A DNA stretch of 64,000 bases from Phycisphaerales bacterium (GCA_050486265.1 JBJHCY010000005.1:3375-67374), one strand, 5' to 3'; positions 38,993-42,535 are shown, numbered from the stretch's first letter. Translations and numbers: made by a program. The notes: a model not told the origin generated them from the letters alone.

Positions 38993-39182
38993 CGTGCTGG
39001 CCTTTCGGCGCTCTGGAACTATCCGGCCGAGGATCGCGGGGCCTCCCTGCGATTCCCGTCGGCTCGGGAACGCAGACAATAGGCCCGACCAAAGCCCGGG
39101 GCCACAGGGCCGAGACCGCCCGCAGGGCGATCGCGTTTTCCCTCACTTGGAGGGTTCGCTGCCGCTGAGATTGCGAGAACAT

Positions 39183-39333
39183 GGGCGCGGGGAGCAGGGC
39201 GCGGGGCGCTGGGAAGGAAGCGGCCTTCGGCCGCGGGTTTCTTTAGCTCTGCGACACCCCGAACCCCAATTCGAAACCGAACCCAGCCTCGGCCGCAGGC
39301 CGAAGCCTCACCTGCACCCAGCGCCCCGCGCCC
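39183..39333. repeat. Composite palindromic intergenic repeat, copy E (full)
   Basis: GGGCGCGGGGAGCAGGGCGCGGGGCGCTGGGAAGGAAGCGGCCTTCGGCCGCGG...GAACCCAGCCTCGGCCGCAGGCCGAAGCCTCACCTGCACCCAGCGCCCCGCGCCC. Lies between the DUF1559-type gene stop and the rpmI start. Confidence 0.8.
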
Positions 39334-39347
39334 AGTTCCCTCTTCTC

Positions 39348-40577
39348 TCAGGGTCCTACGAACGCGTCCTCAACCCCCGCGGGGGTCTCGAAACCGTTCA
39401 GCGGGCTCGCGCGGCGGCCGGTCAGGTGATCGAGCACGATCTCGATGTCCCGGGGCAACCAGATGTTGTCCCCGTTGGAGAGCTCGGGGGTTTCGAGCCA
39501 CTGCACCGATCCGTCGTTGAACAGCACATTCTGCCCGCGACGGCCGTGGTTGTGCGAGTTCTCCATGGGGTGGATCGGCTGACCCAGGACCGCCCGCTGC
39601 ACCACCGGCGAACGGTCGGCCAAGAGCACCACCGAGCCGGGGCTCGACCAGCTGGGCCGGTCGTTGCCGAACATGATCCGATAGCTGTACGACACCTCGT
39701 CCAGCCGGCGCCAGTCGCGGGCGGCAGGGTCTGTCAGACGCGTCGGGGCGACCCGGTTGCCCGGGCAGGCCAGGCTCTCCATCCCGACATACTCCTGGCG
39801 CGTCAGCTCGAACAGGTTCGCCGAGTTGGACTCCTCGGGACGCCCGACATTCCACCACAGCCGCCCCGGAAGACCGGCGCTCGCCATCGGCAGCGCGTCG
39901 CGGTTGGCGCTCGCGTACGAGCCCATCGCGAACGCCGAGGCCCGCATGTTGCTCGCGCAGATCGTCTGGCGGCTGTCCTCGCGCACCGCGTTCATCACCG
40001 GCCAGAGGACCGAAGCCCCCACCACCAGCGACGCGGCGACCGCCACGAAATCCCAGAACCGCACGCGACCGCCACGCCCGCGCCCGATCGGGATCGGCTC
40101 GAGCGCAGCCTCGTCGACCTCGCGGACACGGGCCATCGTCCGATCGATCAGGCCCGATGGCGCAGATCCGCCCGTCGTCACCATCGAGGCCAGCCGCTGA
40201 TGGACCGCCGCACGCTGCTTCAGGCTGCCCGGCGCTCTGGCGGGGTCGAACCCGGCGAGCACCCAGGCGTCCAGGGCGTCGGCGTCGGCGGGGGTCAGCT
40301 CGGGCTCGCGACGCTCCAGCTCGATCCGGCGCGCCACGCGGACCATCGTCACATCCGCGAGCGTTCTGTCTTCGGGCAGCGGGGCGCCGTCGAGGGCCCC
40401 GAGGATCGTCATCAGGCGGGAGGCGCGGCCTTCGTCCTCGGCGTTCCAGCCCGAGCCGACGAGGCGGTCGACCGCGTCGCGGTCTTCGGGCGAGAGCTGG
40501 GCGCCCAGATCGAAGGGAAACGGCCCGTCCGAAAAGTCGTCGTCACCGAAATTGTTGGTTGGTCCGTCGGTGCTCAT
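39348..40577 (-). CDS. Putative anti-sigma factor with a pseudopilin-like DUF1559 / H-X9-DG-type periplasmic domain
   Basis: ATGA overlap with the upstream ECF sigma gene. ~173-aa cytoplasmic part with a duplicated L(S/T)PxDxDAxD motif, then a single TM (FWDFVAVAASLVVGASVLWPVMNAV), then DSRQTICASNMRASAFAMGSY... and HNHGRRGQNVLFNDGSVQWL, matching the planctomycete DUF1559 pattern. Confidence 0.7.
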   Translation of the reverse strand: MSTDGPTNNFGDDDFSDGPFPFDLGAQLSPEDRDAVDRLVGSGWNAEDEGRASRLMTILGALDGAPLPEDRTLADVTMVRVARRIELERREPELTPADADALDAWVLAGFDPARAPGSLKQRAAVHQRLASMVTTGGSAPSGLIDRTMARVREVDEAALEPIPIGRGRGGRVRFWDFVAVAASLVVGASVLWPVMNAVREDSRQTICASNMRASAFAMGSYASANRDALPMASAGLPGRLWWNVGRPEESNSANLFELTRQEYVGMESLACPGNRVAPTRLTDPAARDWRRLDEVSYSYRIMFGNDRPSWSSPGSVVLLADRSPVVQRAVLGQPIHPMENSHNHGRRGQNVLFNDGSVQWLETPELSNGDNIWLPRDIEIVLDHLTGRRASPLNGFETPAGVEDAFVGP

Positions 40578-41227
40578 CGGCTGTCGCTCCTGAACACATC
40601 CTCGCCGCCGGGACCGAGACCGGCTTCCTTCGAGACCCGCTCGAAATGGCCCGCGAAGCTCGCGACCGCGGCGTGCAGCCTCGACTTGACCGTCCCCAGG
40701 GGGATCCCAAGATCTTCGGCGATCTGGGCGTAGCTGAGCCGCTGGAAGTAGGCCAAGAGGAGGATCTCCCTGAGCGTCGGGCTCATGCGTCCGAGGGCGG
40801 CCTGCACGAGCCTGTCGGTTTCCTGCTTGTCGAGCCCGGCGTCCGGCGAGGGGGTGTCGATCTTCATCAGGTCCACAAAGGTGGCCCCGCGAGACCCGTC
40901 GTCGCCGGATACCGGGGCGGACAGATCCATCGTCTGCCGCCGGCCCTTCTTACGCAGGTAGTCCCTCCCTTTGTTCGCCGCGATCGTAAAGAGCCAGGGC
41001 CGAAAACGACGAGAGGCGTCGAAACTGTGCGCCGAGACATGCACCTGCAGGAAGGCCTCCTGAAAGACATCCTCCGCGGCCACACGATCGCCGAGCAACC
41101 GGTACAGGAACCTGTACAGGTCGTCGTGGTAACGCTCGATGAGGGTCCGGAAAGCCTCCGTGTCCCCCGCTCGATAGCGTTCGAACAGTTGCTCGTCGGT
41201 GGTCTGTCCCACGCGTGCATTGTCCAT
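40574..41227 (-). CDS. ECF-type RNA polymerase sigma factor
   Basis: Region 2 (DLYRFLYRLLGDRVAAEDVFQEAFLQV...FRPWLFTIAANKGRDYLRK) and region 4 HTH (REILLLAYFQRLSYAQIAEDLGIPLGTVKSRLH). Start re-set to MDNARVGQ at 41227. Confidence 0.88.
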   Translation of the reverse strand: MDNARVGQTTDEQLFERYRAGDTEAFRTLIERYHDDLYRFLYRLLGDRVAAEDVFQEAFLQVHVSAHSFDASRRFRPWLFTIAANKGRDYLRKKGRRQTMDLSAPVSGDDGSRGATFVDLMKIDTPSPDAGLDKQETDRLVQAALGRMSPTLREILLLAYFQRLSYAQIAEDLGIPLGTVKSRLHAAVASFAGHFERVSKEAGLGPGGEDVFRSDSR

Positions 41228-41471
41228 CGGTTCAGAGGGCCCCGCCCCGGGAATCGCGGGCGGAACCGAAAATCGTGCTGAATGAAACGCCCGAGTTACT
41301 ATCAGGTATCGAACAACGGTCGGCTCGGCTTTGTTCCGGCCCGTGTTGTACCGGGCAATGGCGCCCCGAGCGTCGGGCGCTGGAGCATTGGGGACTTTCA
41401 CGCCCGATATCACGCCTGCCTCGCGCCCGCCGGATGCAATGCGACGCCGCCCCGGGCGTTGTGCATGACAG

Positions 41472-42086
41472 ATGTCGGGGGTCGCGATGAGTTCTGACGG
41501 CGCGAGACCCGCCCCGGCCCCCGATGATCCGTCGCTGCTCGCCAGAGCTGCCGGCGGCGACGAAGGGGCGTGGCGGTGCGTGGTCGCGTCGTACGCCCCC
41601 CGGGTCTTTGCGCTGGTGCGGAGCCGGTGCCGTGACGACGACCTCGCCGAGGAGATCACCCAGGCCGTGTTTGTGACCATGGCGGAAAAACTCGGGGCGG
41701 GCGGGTACGACGAGCGGGGCCGCTTCGAGGCCTGGCTTTTCAGGGTCGCCATGAACCGCTTCCGCGACCACGCCCGCAAGGCCAAACGCCAGGCTTCGCC
41801 CGCCGACCCCGCCTCGCTCGACGCCGGGCCGGACACACGCCCCGGCCCCTCCGACCGCGACGCGGCGGACCTCGCCCGCCTGCGCGAGGCGCTGGAGACC
41901 CTGAACGAGGCGGACCGCGAGATCGTCCACCTCCGTCACCACGCCGGTTTGAGCTTCAAACAGATCGCCGAGGTCTTGCAGGAGCCGCTCGGCACGCTTC
42001 TGGCCCGCCACCACCGGGCCCTCGCCAAGCTCCGGAAGGTGCTCGGCGAACCCGATGACCACCCAAACGCGGAGCACGCGTCATGA
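41472..42086 (+). CDS. ECF-type RNA polymerase sigma factor (second, divergent)
   Basis: ITQAVFVTMAEKL...FEAWLFRVAMNRFRDHARK and REIVHLRHHAGLSFKQIAEVLQEPLGTLLARHHRALAKLR. Confidence 0.85.
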   Translation: MSGVAMSSDGARPAPAPDDPSLLARAAGGDEGAWRCVVASYAPRVFALVRSRCRDDDLAEEITQAVFVTMAEKLGAGGYDERGRFEAWLFRVAMNRFRDHARKAKRQASPADPASLDAGPDTRPGPSDRDAADLARLREALETLNEADREIVHLRHHAGLSFKQIAEVLQEPLGTLLARHHRALAKLRKVLGEPDDHPNAEHAS

Positions 42087-42535
42087 CCAGCACACCCGAA
42101 CCCACCCGCCGCTCGCTGGAAGACCGCCTCGACGCGCTGGGCGCTCTCGAACGCAACGCAACACCCCGCGGCTTGGCGTCGCGCATCGCGGACGCCTCTG
42201 CGCCGAGCCTTCGTGCCGAACGCCCCGCGGTGGTCGCCCGCATCGGGCCCGTGTGGGCGTCGCGTCTGGGCGCTTTGGCCGCGAGCCTGGCCCTGCTCAT
42301 CGGGGTCGCGGCCTTGGTCGTCAGCGTCCGACCGGGCTCGGAGATCGACGCACCCGCGCCGGTGATGGCGACCGTCGCGGCGGACATGGAGCTCTGGCTT
42401 TCGCTGGAGTCCATGCTCAGCGATCCGCTCGCCAGCCGCTTGGACGCCTTGTACGCCGAATCGACGGCGCTGGAGTCCTACGACGAAGCAGACCTGTTCA
42501 CGCTCGAAATGCTGAGCGTACTGGAGTCGATGTGA
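42083..42535 (+). CDS. Putative single-pass anti-sigma factor
   Basis: ATGA overlap with the preceding sigma gene and one TM helix (LGALAASLALLIGVAALVV). No motif-level identification. Confidence 0.5.
   Translation: MTSTPEPTRRSLEDRLDALGALERNATPRGLASRIADASAPSLRAERPAVVARIGPVWASRLGALAASLALLIGVAALVVSVRPGSEIDAPAPVMATVAADMELWLSLESMLSDPLASRLDALYAESTALESYDEADLFTLEMLSVLESM

What the first reader, a model, noticed from the sequence alone, without database searches (positions are those of the whole stretch)
39348..41227. ECF sigma factor translationally coupled to an anti-sigma candidate whose extracytoplasmic half is a pseudopilin-like DUF1559 (H-X9-DG-type) module
Seen: the sigma gene (40574-41227) and the 409-aa gene overlap by ATGA. 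In the 409-aa protein a ~173-aa N-terminal region precedes a single hydrophobic helix. This region contains a duplicated motif, LSPEDRDAVDRLVGSGWN and LTPADADALDAWVLAGFD. After the helix the sequence follows the planctomycete DUF1559 pattern: ...RQTICASNMRASAFAMGSY... near the helix, and HNHGRRGQNVLFNDGSVQWL near the C-terminus. Established: DUF1559 proteins normally begin with a short prepilin leader and a cleavage/methylation motif, and are considered type IV pilin or pseudopilin-like. Here the leader is replaced by a large cytoplasmic domain, and the conserved Glu of the pilin helix is not evident. Inference: a pilin-fold domain has been recruited as the sensor of an ECF anti-sigma factor, or a pilin-like protein is sequestering a sigma factor.
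Basis: partly seen in the sequence, partly recalled or inferred. Interest (0 to 1): 0.6.

Follow-up and report, generated by a model that had tools for sequence, protein, structure and literature searches.

The report
Pilin-derived anti-sigma factor candidate, Phycisphaerales
A stress-type (ECF) sigma factor gene is followed by a membrane protein whose membrane helix and outer domain descend from a pilin-like DUF1559 protein and whose inner half is a duplicated helical module, so it is probably a previously undescribed kind of sigma-factor inhibitor conserved across a whole bacterial order.

Summary
An ECF sigma gene (40574-41227, minus strand) overlaps by ATGA a 409-aa gene (39348-40577).

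The 409-aa protein aligns without gaps to canonical prepilin-type DUF1559 proteins of the same genome (hhalign 97%, E 7e-11). In that register V172 is +1, D176 is +5, P193 is P22 and C207 is C36. The prepilin-peptidase site is absent (R at -1, a 171-aa "leader"). The C-terminal motif is H-X10-DG. The protein itself scores below the Pfam and TIGR cut-offs, but distant orthologues pass them.

The N-terminal half is a tandem duplication of a ~66-aa three-helix unit (E 9e-22). It is not recognisable as a class I anti-sigma domain by profiles, the PDB or Foldseek.

An orthologous sigma gene sits directly upstream in every locus where this could be tested (76/76 and 27/27). The family comprises about 595 clusters at 50% identity in at least 169 species, all Phycisphaerae.

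Pilin descent is shown. Anti-sigma function is inferred from gene context and membrane topology. The signal and regulon are unknown. I found no published description.

The parts
40574..41227 (-). ECF (group 4) sigma factor gene, 217 aa
   Evidence: Sigma70_r2 71.1 bits and Sigma70_r4_2 58.5 bits. TIGR02937 112 bits against a cut-off of 42.9. The nearest named models, PRK12513 and SigW, score below their cut-offs.
39348..40577 (-). 409-aa single-pass membrane protein, the candidate anti-sigma factor with a pilin-derived anchor and ectodomain
   Evidence: ORF. More than 590 full-length homologues. 595 clusters at E<=1e-30. Sigma gene directly upstream in 76/76 and 27/27 testable loci.
40574..40577 (-). 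ATGA stop/start overlap between the sigma gene and the 409-aa gene
   Evidence: Read directly from the sequence. Among 76 orthologous loci the sigma stop lies in ATGA in 34, GTGA in 13 and TTGA in 6.
40587..40591 (-). AGGAG Shine-Dalgarno sequence, 9 nt before the ATG of the 409-aa gene and inside the end of the sigma gene
   Evidence: Read directly from the sequence.
40314..40502 (-). Cytoplasmic three-helix unit 1 (residues 26-88), the diverged copy
   Evidence: hhalign unit 1 vs unit 2: 99.4%, E 8.8e-22. Unit boundaries from hmmsearch. Helices 30-41, 51-60 and 71-89, pLDDT 80-91.
40107..40307 (-). Cytoplasmic three-helix unit 2 (residues 91-157). This is the ancestral copy kept in single-unit relatives. 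It carries the invariant D98 and R122.
   Evidence: Helices 96-107, 117-134 and 143-158, pLDDT 92-98 over residues 100-130. Weak, register-consistent similarity to the genome's own class I anti-sigma domains (35% probability, P 4e-4).
39906..40064 (-). Pilin alpha-1 helix homologue (residues 172-224): the transmembrane segment plus alpha1-C. The register is V172=+1, R173=+2, D176=+5, P193=P22, R199=R28, C207=C36.
   Evidence: hhalign 97.1%, E 6.9e-11 and 96.7%, E 4.2e-10. PDB geopilin E 9e-4 in the same register. Column counts. AlphaFold2 helix 174-224.
40050..40052 (-). Asp176 codon, equivalent to pilin Glu+5
   Evidence: Asp in 119/121 homologues. Glu in 11 of 17 order- and class-level relatives. 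A canonical paralogue of this genome reads GFTLLDL.
39999..40001 (-). Pro193 codon, equivalent to pilin Pro22
   Evidence: Pro in 121/121 homologues.
39765..39767 (-). Cys271 codon in the invariant ACPGN motif. It is the likely disulfide partner of Cys207 (codon 39957-39959) and corresponds to the x-C-P-[SGD] motif of canonical DUF1559 proteins.
   Evidence: Both Cys are invariant in A1. Canonical paralogues show RCPSD, YCPSH, ECPSQ, SCPSY, MCPSD at the colinear place. The disulfide itself is inferred.
39510..39548 (-). H-X10-DG motif (H344...D355 G356) within NHGRRGQNVLFNDGS
   Evidence: The spacing is 10 in 126/140 family members. Class-level orthologues hit TIGR04294 at 20.2 and 19.6 bits against a cut-off of 19, and hit the C-terminal end of PF07596. 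A colinear weak hhalign hit covers 349-376.
39351..39494 (-). Family-specific C-terminal tail (residues 362-409), with GDNIWLP and an invariant extreme C-terminus D-x-F-[VL]-G-P-COOH
   Evidence: 121/121 homologues end in GP. Across the class the end is D-x-F-[LVI]-x-P-COOH.
41311..41336 (-). Candidate ECF-type promoter, GAAC-N17-TGTTC, about 85 nt upstream of the sigma start codon
   Evidence: GAAC-N17-CGTAG is conserved at the same place in five related genomes, and GAAC-N17-CGTTC in another. No sigma-70-like promoter was found in this intergenic region. The function is inferred, and the motif is not enriched genome-wide.
39282..39304 (-). Terminator-like hairpin with a T-rich tail, just after the stop codon and inside a dispersed repeat copy
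   Evidence: Assemblies of a related strain break at this repeat.

Best explanation
The two genes form a bicistronic, translationally coupled ECF sigma / anti-sigma operon.

The 409-aa protein inserts N-in as a single-pass membrane protein.
- Cytoplasmic half: two tandem three-helix units (residues 26-88 and 91-157) are proposed to hold the sigma factor inactive at the membrane.
- Membrane helix and periplasmic domain: these descend from a prepilin-type DUF1559 (H-X9-DG) protein. The acidic +5 residue (Asp176), Pro22, the Cys36...CPG pair and the C-terminal NVLFxDGS hairpin are kept. The prepilin-peptidase site is lost (Arg at -1), so the protein stays in the membrane as an uncleaved 'pilin'.

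A periplasmic or intramembrane event sensed by the pilin-like part is proposed to release the sigma factor. The most likely route is regulated proteolysis, as in other single-pass anti-sigma factors. The released sigma would then drive its own promoter (GAAC-N17-yGTw) and an unknown regulon.

Shown: the sigma identity, pilin/DUF1559 descent of residues ~170-360, the duplication, the topology signals and the invariable gene pairing.

Inferred: sigma binding, the release mechanism, the signal and autoregulation.
For: - Sigma identity: the upstream gene is an ECF sigma factor.
- Coupling: ATGA overlap with an AGGAG Shine-Dalgarno sequence.
- Pairing: an orthologous sigma gene lies directly upstream on the same strand in 27/27 long-form loci from family to class level, and in 0/6 short canonical pilin loci. 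It is also upstream in 76/76 species-representative loci that have enough upstream DNA.
- Synteny: the order sigma - this gene - rpmI - rplT is conserved.
- Pilin descent:
  - hhalign 97.1%, E 6.9e-11 and 96.7%, E 4.2e-10 against canonical G|FTLIEL paralogues of the same genome, in one gapless register.
  - The same register against PDB geopilin.
  - The family HMM hits hundreds of canonical pilin-like ORFs across Planctomycetota at model positions ~160-240 with E 1e-10 to 1e-15.
  - 63,263 library hits at E<=1e-3, against 595 at E<=1e-30.
  - 9/32 homologues hit PF07596.
  - Class-level orthologues pass the TIGR04294 cut-off, and one passes the PF07596 cut-off.
- Residue conservation: D+5 in 119/121, P22 in 121/121, C36 in 121/121.
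- Topology: a five-Arg cluster lies on the N-terminal side of the helix.
- The N-terminal half is a real, folded, coding domain:
  - AlphaFold2 gives pLDDT 81 with six helices.
  - It is conserved in more than 590 homologues.
  - Differences from close relatives are in excess at third codon positions (66 vs 33 and 32).
  - 30 of 34 strain differences fall on codon position 3.
- Weak anti-sigma signals: NF052375 ('anti-sigma factor') hits this protein at E 0.004-0.009 and several orthologues at 0.009-0.09, at consistent profile positions. It ranks just behind six bona fide anti-sigma factors of the genome.
- Operon end: a terminator-like hairpin follows the gene, which fits a two-gene operon.
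Against: - No direct evidence of sigma binding.
- The N-terminal domain is not a recognisable anti-sigma domain. It has no zf-HC2 or RskA hit. It lacks the HxxxCxxC motif. It scores 16 bits on NF052375 against a cut-off of 100. hhalign against the genome's own anti-sigma domains gives only 35% probability (20% for the class-level N-termini). There is no anti-sigma chain in a PDB profile search and no Foldseek hit.
- The ectodomain fold was not confirmed structurally. The full-length model has pLDDT 62 and Foldseek found no pilin.
- The protein's own DUF1559 score is sub-threshold.
- The ectodomain is far more conserved than the cytoplasmic half: 14 nonsynonymous against 60 synonymous codon differences, compared with 44 against 43. 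This is the reverse of what I would expect for most anti-sigma factors (own expectation, not tested here).
- The candidate promoter motif is not enriched genome-wide and is not found upstream of pilin-like genes, so autoregulation and the regulon are unsupported.
Confidence: 0.7

Rival explanations
1. Pilin-mimic sensor (a sharper version of the main reading). The uncleaved pilin helix (Asp5, Pro22) docks in the membrane onto mature DUF1559-type pilins or onto their assembly platform. The anti-sigma factor would then report the size or assembly state of the pilin pool and tune transcription accordingly. The intramembrane sensing of PilA by PilS in Pseudomonas aeruginosa would be the analogue (own knowledge).
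For: - Near-invariant retention of exactly those helix residues that matter for pilin-pilin and pilin-machinery contacts (D/E+5 119/121, P22 121/121), although cleavage is lost.
- The genome encodes about 38 canonical G|FTLIEL prepilin-like ORFs and a prepilin peptidase homologue.
- The ectodomain is under much stronger constraint than the cytoplasmic half, as expected if it contacts a conserved partner.
- In a Planctomycetia genome, a sigma gene, a zf-HC2 anti-sigma gene and a canonical DUF1559 gene lie in a row, which links such sigma systems to DUF1559 genes.
Against: - No evidence of any contact with pilins.
- The candidate promoter motif occurs upstream of only 1 of 39 pilin-like genes, at background rate.
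- Retention of D5 and P22 could simply reflect membrane insertion or helix packing needs.
Confidence: 0.2
2. The 409-aa protein is not an anti-sigma factor. It is a sigma-dependent co-transcribed membrane protein, either a target or accessory of the sigma factor, or a positive regulator. The N-terminal domain would then bind something else.
For: - The N-terminal domain fails all membership tests for known anti-sigma domains.
- The cytoplasmic half evolves fast.
Against: - The immediate downstream position is invariable, with frequent stop/start overlap, across a whole class.
- No other candidate anti-sigma gene is in the operon.
- N-in single-pass topology with a helical cytoplasmic domain of the right size.
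- Repeated weak hits to an anti-sigma model.
Confidence: 0.15
3. It is a true prepilin with an exceptionally long leader. The prepilin peptidase would cleave before V172, releasing a mature pilin-like protein for assembly and freeing the N-terminal domain (with or without bound sigma) into the cytoplasm.
For: - The pilin register is intact from +1 to +36.
- 35 of 121 homologues do carry Gly at -1.
- A prepilin peptidase homologue is present.
Against: - This protein has Arg at -1, and Arg is the majority residue there (64/121).
- Position +1 is V/I/L/F/N and +2 is Arg in 113/121, instead of the F-T of all canonical paralogues.
- Order- and class-level relatives show no conserved Gly at -1.
- A folded 171-aa leader is unlike any prepilin leader I know of (own knowledge; not tested here).
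Confidence: 0.05
4. The pilin likeness is convergent or due to chance: a generic transmembrane helix followed by an unrelated domain.
For: - The protein's own Pfam E-value is 0.11.
- Foldseek found no pilin.
Against: - Three independent profile comparisons agree on one gapless register.
- Colinear landmarks are shared: D/E5, P22, R28, C36-N39, CP[SG] and NVLFxDGS.
- Orthologues score above the curated cut-offs of PF07596 and TIGR04294.
Confidence: 0.02

Closest known systems
Single-pass class I anti-sigma factors with their ECF sigma partners (RsiW/SigW of Bacillus subtilis, RseA/RpoE of E. coli, RslA/SigL and RskA/SigK of Mycobacterium tuberculosis)
   Same: - Gene order sigma then anti-sigma, with stop/start overlap.
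- N-in single-pass topology.
- A helical cytoplasmic domain of roughly the right size, and an extracytoplasmic domain as presumed sensor.
- The sigma factor's best named matches are SigW, RpoE and SigM type models.
   Different: - The cytoplasmic domain is not detected by zf-HC2 or RskA models, has no zinc motif, and is a tandem duplication of a three-helix unit.
- The membrane helix and ectodomain are pilin-derived.
- The ectodomain is the most conserved part.
- No protease partner or signal is known.
DUF1559 / SBP_bac_10 (PF07596) prepilin-type H-X9-DG proteins of Planctomycetota (TIGR04294, with the N_methyl cleavage/methylation motif)
   Same: The alpha-1 helix is in exact register (acidic +5, P22, R28, C36, N39). 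The second Cys lies in a CP[SG] motif. The C-terminal G-x-N-V-L-F-x-D-G-S hairpin is present. The topology is the same.
   Different: - No class III signal peptide: R at -1, V-R at +1/+2, and a 171-aa folded cytoplasmic domain instead of a short basic leader.
- Asp instead of Glu at +5.
- The motif spacing is H-X10-DG.
- There is an extra ~48-aa tail ending in the invariant D-x-F-[VL]-G-P.
- The gene is single-copy and always paired with a sigma gene, whereas canonical members form large paralogue sets (about 38 prepilin-like ORFs in this genome).
PilA-PilS pilin inventory sensing in Pseudomonas aeruginosa (own knowledge; not tested here)
   Same: The concept only: a regulator that could read pilins through contacts of the conserved N-terminal pilin helix inside the membrane.
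   Different: There the sensor is a histidine kinase and the pilin is the ligand. Here the regulator itself carries the pilin helix and would control an ECF sigma factor.
FecR-type anti-sigma factors (own knowledge)
   Same: A short N-terminal helical sigma-binding region, a single transmembrane helix and a large periplasmic sensor. The N-terminal sequence pattern of the unit is loosely reminiscent (recalled from memory only).
   Different: No FecR profile hit. The ectodomain is unrelated. No TonB-dependent transducer is in the neighbourhood.

Membership tests
ECF (group 4) sigma-70 family | Sigma-2 and sigma-4 domains only, with a score above the family cut-off | tested here: met
   PF04542 71.1 bits and PF08281 58.5 bits. 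TIGR02937 112 bits against 42.9.
Named ECF equivalogs (PRK12513, SigW, RpoE) | Score at or above the curated equivalog cut-off | tested here: not met
   135.8 against 206; 127.4 against 209; 93.8 against 236. Classification into ECF Hub groups could not be run.
Class I anti-sigma domain (zf-HC2 PF13490 / RskA / NF052375) | Profile hit above threshold in the cytoplasmic N-terminus | tested here: not met
   No PF13490 or RskA hit at E<=1. NF052375 scores 16.1 bits against a cut-off of 100, covering residues 126-210 only. The same models detect six other anti-sigma factors in this genome.
Class I anti-sigma domain | H-x3-C-x2-C zinc motif (ZAS subclass) | tested here: not met
   There is no Cys in residues 1-206 of the protein.
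Class I anti-sigma domain | Remote homology or fold similarity to known anti-sigma domains | tested here: inconclusive
   hhalign of each unit against six anti-sigma domains of the same genome: 34-35% probability, P 4e-4, same register for both units. Class-level N-termini: 20%. PDB profile search: no anti-sigma chain. Foldseek on a pLDDT-81 model: nothing below E 2.5.
Anti-sigma factor (functional class) | Gene adjacent to and co-oriented with its sigma gene, conserved across taxa | tested here: met
   27/27 and 76/76 testable loci. ATGA overlap here.
Anti-sigma factor (functional class) | Physical binding and inhibition of the sigma factor | not testable with these tools
   No multimer prediction or experiment was available.
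DUF1559 / SBP_bac_10 (PF07596) | Score at or above the Pfam gathering threshold (23.3 bits) | tested here: not met
   This protein scores 12.9 bits, E 0.11, over residues 197-232 only. Among relatives, 9/32 hit at E<=0.01 (best 2.9e-6). One class-level orthologue scores 25.5 bits. Others match the C-terminal profile positions 222-263.
DUF1559 / prepilin-type proteins | Profile-profile homology to canonical members | tested here: met
   97.1% (E 6.9e-11) and 96.7% (E 4.2e-10) over the alpha-1 helix. The C-terminal part gives only a weak colinear hit (E 0.11).
TIGR04294 H-X9-DG C-terminal domain | Profile hit at or above 19 bits, and H-X9-DG spacing | tested here: not met
   This protein has no hit. 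Orthologues score 20.2 and 19.6 bits over profile positions 10-22. The spacing in this family is H-X10-DG in 126/140 members.
Type IV prepilin (class III signal peptide, prepilin peptidase substrate) | Gly at -1, hydrophobic F/M at +1, short basic leader | tested here: not met
   R171 at -1 (R 64, G 35, S 9 of 121). V at +1. R at +2 in 113/121. The 'leader' is 171 aa.
Type IV pilin alpha-1 helix | Acidic residue at +5 and Pro at +22 | tested here: met
   Asp176 in 119/121 homologues, Glu in sister lineages. Pro193 in 121/121.
Pilin fold (alpha-1 helix packed on an antiparallel sheet) | Structural match of the ectodomain to solved pilins or pseudopilins | tested here: inconclusive
   The model shows a 51-residue helix and then four strands, but mean pLDDT is 62. 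Foldseek against the PDB gave no hit below E 2.5.

The most novel reading that the evidence does not exclude
The protein is a pilin mimic that couples transcription to the state of the cell's pilin-like (DUF1559) system. Its uncleavable pilin helix (Asp5, Pro22) and strongly conserved ectodomain would sit among mature pseudopilins or in their assembly platform. Depletion, assembly or damage of that system would free the ECF sigma factor from the duplicated cytoplasmic module. This would be a new input logic for ECF signalling. It would also be the first functional handle on one of the largest uncharacterised protein families of Planctomycetota.
Probability: 0.2. Interest if true: 0.8.

Novelty: new variant of a known kind. 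Interest (0 to 1): 0.6.

Why it matters
- ECF sigma/anti-sigma pairs are a major route by which bacteria sense their envelope, and what is sensed depends on the anti-sigma ectodomain. A pilin-derived anchor plus sensor did not appear in any paper I could search.
- DUF1559 proteins are very numerous in Planctomycetota and have no known function. A single-copy, order-wide member wired to a sigma factor gives a testable entry point: what does the pilin-like domain bind, and which genes respond?
- The cytoplasmic module is a duplicated three-helix unit that current anti-sigma models do not recognise. If it binds sigma, it would extend the catalogue of sigma-binding domains.
- About 600 sequence clusters in at least 169 species are currently labelled 'hypothetical protein' and could be annotated.

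Tried and rejected
- Foldseek of the full-length AlphaFold2 model (pLDDT 62) against the PDB found no pilin and no meaningful hit.
- Foldseek of the N-terminal model (pLDDT 81, pTM 0.44) gave nothing below E 2.5.
- A PDB profile search with the unit alignment gave only spurious hits and no anti-sigma chain.
- Regulon prediction failed. GAAC-N17-CGTAG is conserved upstream of the sigma gene in relatives, but in seven genomes it is no more frequent than the reversed-pattern control. The relaxed motif precedes 1 of 39 pilin-like genes, against a background of 2.8%.
- Transcription evidence was not usable. Four runs labelled RNA-Seq hold a 97%-identical strain, but as contigs of up to 150 kb at flat depth. 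They cannot show transcription or co-transcription and were used only for the codon-position pattern.
- An internal start giving an ordinary prepilin was rejected. There is no G-F-T-L-I-E, position -1 is Arg, and the upstream 170 residues are conserved and predicted to fold.
- Long ORFs elsewhere in the phylum that matched the helix and looked like further fusions turned out to be ordinary prepilins with spurious upstream ORF extension.
- Literature: eight searches found no description (DUF1559 with anti-sigma or ECF, SBP_bac_10, H-X9-DG, pseudopilin or pilin-like with anti-sigma, and the ECF re-classification paper). Only four held papers mention DUF1559 at all. The supplements of the ECF classification paper and the Planctomycetes ECF papers were not held.
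Full report
**What is in the window**

On the minus strand, a 217-aa ORF (40574-41227) is followed by a 409-aa ORF (39348-40577). The sigma stop codon and the next start codon share ATGA, and an AGGAG lies 9 nt before the ATG. The first protein is an ECF sigma factor: Sigma70_r2 71 bits, Sigma70_r4_2 58 bits, TIGR02937 112 bits against a cut-off of 42.9. It is below the cut-off of every named equivalog; the nearest are PRK12513 and SigW. A terminator-like hairpin follows the second gene. After it come rpmI and rplT.

**The membrane helix and outer half are pilin-derived**

On its own, the 409-aa protein gives only a sub-threshold DUF1559 hit (E 0.11, residues 197-232) and no TIGR04294 hit. The case rests on its family.

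The family:
- More than 590 full-length homologues of about 400 aa exist, nearly all unnamed.
- An exhaustive profile search finds 595 clusters at E<=1e-30 and 63,263 at E<=1e-3.
- In a sample of 401 Planctomycetota genomes, the weaker matches were canonical pilin-like ORFs hitting model positions ~160-240 at E 1e-10 to 1e-15.

Comparison with canonical pilins:
- Against four canonical DUF1559 paralogues of the same genome, the family profile scores 97.1% (E 6.9e-11).
- Against twenty G|FTLIEL prepilin-like ORFs of the genome, it scores 96.7% (E 4.2e-10).
- The PDB's geopilin is matched in the same register (E 9e-4).

That register has no gaps: V172=+1, R173=+2, D176=+5, P193=P22, R199=R28, C207=C36, N210=N39. 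In 121 homologues, +5 is Asp in 119, while P22 and C36 are invariant.

It is Asp here and Glu in most order- and class-level relatives. One canonical paralogue of this genome itself reads GFTLLDL.

Further along, two more colinear landmarks are shared:
- The invariant ACPGN corresponds to the x-C-P-[SGD] motif of canonical members.
- NHGRRGQNVLFNDGS corresponds to the H-X9-DG hairpin. The spacing in this family is X10 in 126 of 140 members.

Class-level orthologues pass the TIGR04294 cut-off (20.2 and 19.6 against 19). They also match both ends of the PF07596 profile, one of them above the gathering threshold.

The fold itself is not confirmed. The full-length model (pLDDT 62) shows a 51-residue helix followed by four strands, but Foldseek found no pilin.

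**It is not an ordinary prepilin**

Position -1 is Arg (R 64, G 35, S 9 of 121). Position +1 is V/I/L/F/N, and +2 is Arg in 113 of 121, against G|F-T in all canonical paralogues. The 171 residues before the helix are conserved, and five arginines sit just before it, which fits an N-in topology. Cleavage by the genome's prepilin peptidase homologue is therefore unlikely.

**The cytoplasmic half**

- 119 of 121 close homologues have two units.
- Order-level relatives mostly have one unit, which corresponds to unit 2.
- Class-level relatives have a diverged N-terminus.

With 118 sequences, AlphaFold2 models residues 1-170 at pLDDT 81 as six helices. The pTM is 0.44, so the mutual arrangement of the units is uncertain.

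Tests for a known anti-sigma domain were negative or weak:
- No zf-HC2 or RskA hit, and no Cys at all before residue 207.
- NF052375 scores 16 bits against a cut-off of 100. That model finds six conventional anti-sigma factors in this genome and ranks this protein next (E 0.004).
- hhalign against those six anti-sigma domains gives 34-35% for each unit, both in the same register.
- There is no anti-sigma chain in a PDB profile search and no Foldseek hit.

Codon statistics show the region is coding but less constrained than the ectodomain. Against an 84%-identical relative, the N-terminal half has 44 nonsynonymous and 43 synonymous codon differences, and the C-terminal half has 14 and 60. In a 97%-identical strain, 30 of 34 listed differences fall on codon position 3.

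**Context**

An orthologue of the sigma gene lies directly upstream on the same strand:
- in 27 of 27 long-form loci, from the same family out to the class;
- in 76 of 76 species-representative loci that have enough upstream DNA. Four further loci are cut by contig ends.

None of six short canonical pilin loci has a sigma gene upstream. The order sigma - this gene - rpmI - rplT, with a divergent second ECF operon upstream, recurs in relatives at 44-47% identity. All 80 best loci come from Phycisphaerales or Phycisphaeraceae MAGs, and 169 species-level genomes encode a relative.

**Mechanism**

The best-supported reading is a membrane anti-sigma factor. The duplicated cytoplasmic module would sequester the sigma factor. 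The uncleaved pilin-like helix and ectodomain would receive the signal. Release most likely follows the proteolytic route of other single-pass anti-sigma factors.

Only the architecture and the pairing are shown. Binding, signal and release are inferred.

Three features suggest that the pilin-like part contacts a conserved partner:
- the acidic +5 residue and Pro22 are retained although processing is lost;
- the ectodomain is strongly constrained;
- the extreme C-terminus D-x-F-[VL]-G-P is invariant.

The boldest reading is a pilin mimic that reports on the cell's roughly 38 prepilin-like proteins or on their assembly platform. I give it about 0.2.

A candidate ECF-type promoter, GAAC-N17-yGTw, is conserved upstream of the sigma gene; here it is at 41311-41336. 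It is not enriched genome-wide and does not precede pilin-like genes. The regulon is therefore unknown.

**Novelty**

Eight full-text searches and the ECF re-classification paper gave no description of an anti-sigma factor with a DUF1559 or pilin-like domain. Public records call these proteins hypothetical.

Earlier AI notes of this scan report the same architecture in other genomes. They agree with this report but are not independent evidence. The register and the adjacency claims were re-derived here for this family.

I class this as a new variant of a known kind: an ECF sigma/anti-sigma pair with a new anchor-and-sensor module and an unclassified, duplicated sigma-side module.

Noticed in passing
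L077 ~1531, L078 ~1522, L079 ~1534 (relatives G189, G343, G041): An ECF-type motif, CGAACTGGATC-N-GGGCGTAGCTAC, lies about 130 nt upstream of a gene starting VKIYVGNLPY (an RRM-type RNA-binding protein). The motif has the same GAAC-N17-CGTAG form as the promoter candidate of the sigma orthologues. It is followed by a conserved 5' leader, and it is conserved in three genomes. It could be a second target of this sigma factor or of a similar one.
   Followed up: partly
L085 62-3100 (Planctomycetia genome G118, contig C34): An ECF sigma gene, a 468-aa zf-HC2 anti-sigma gene and a canonical G|FTLIEL DUF1559 prepilin gene lie in a row on one strand. This arrangement could give rise to a fusion like the one studied here.
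   Followed up: no
own genome, e.g. C1:342059-352722 and C5:195905-199029 (outside the window): The genome holds about 38 ORFs with a canonical G|FTLIEL prepilin signal. Among them are clusters of ~340-360-aa paralogues with LLPALGEARRIAR...DQNNQRQLA. These lack Cys36 and mostly escape PF07596, which gave only 4 hits genome-wide.
   Followed up: partly
own genome C5:146354-148497 (L001/L042, ~80 kb beyond the window): A canonical DUF1559 gene with Asp at +5 (GFTLLDL) lies next to, and divergent from, another ECF sigma / RskA-like anti-sigma pair.
   Followed up: no
window 39159-39306: Assemblies of a 97%-identical strain break or branch here, with many loose ends and depth rising from ~46 to ~700-900. 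This fits the dispersed intergenic repeat reported for this genome by another first-stage note.
   Followed up: partly
window 41472-42535 (+): A second ECF sigma gene, divergent from the first, overlaps a 150-aa single-helix protein by ATGA. This divergent pair of sigma operons is conserved in relatives (L005-L007).
   Followed up: no
L005 6218-6907: In one relative, a Peptidase_M50 (site-2 protease family) gene follows rplT, just downstream of the sigma / anti-sigma / rpmI / rplT block. It is absent at this place in the window.
   Followed up: no
P0012, P0117, L127, L166 (public records): Annotation oddities. One homologue is named 'diguanylate cyclase/phosphodiesterase with PAS/PAC sensor(s)' although no Pfam domain is on record for it. 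Several carriers are labelled Leptolyngbya or Cyanobacteria MAGs, which are probably mis-binned Phycisphaerales contigs.
   Followed up: no
runs X2-X5: Four runs labelled RNA-Seq of another organism contain contigs of up to 150 kb from a close relative of this bacterium, at flat depth. This suggests a co-cultured or contaminating Phycisphaerales strain and DNA-like coverage.
   Followed up: no
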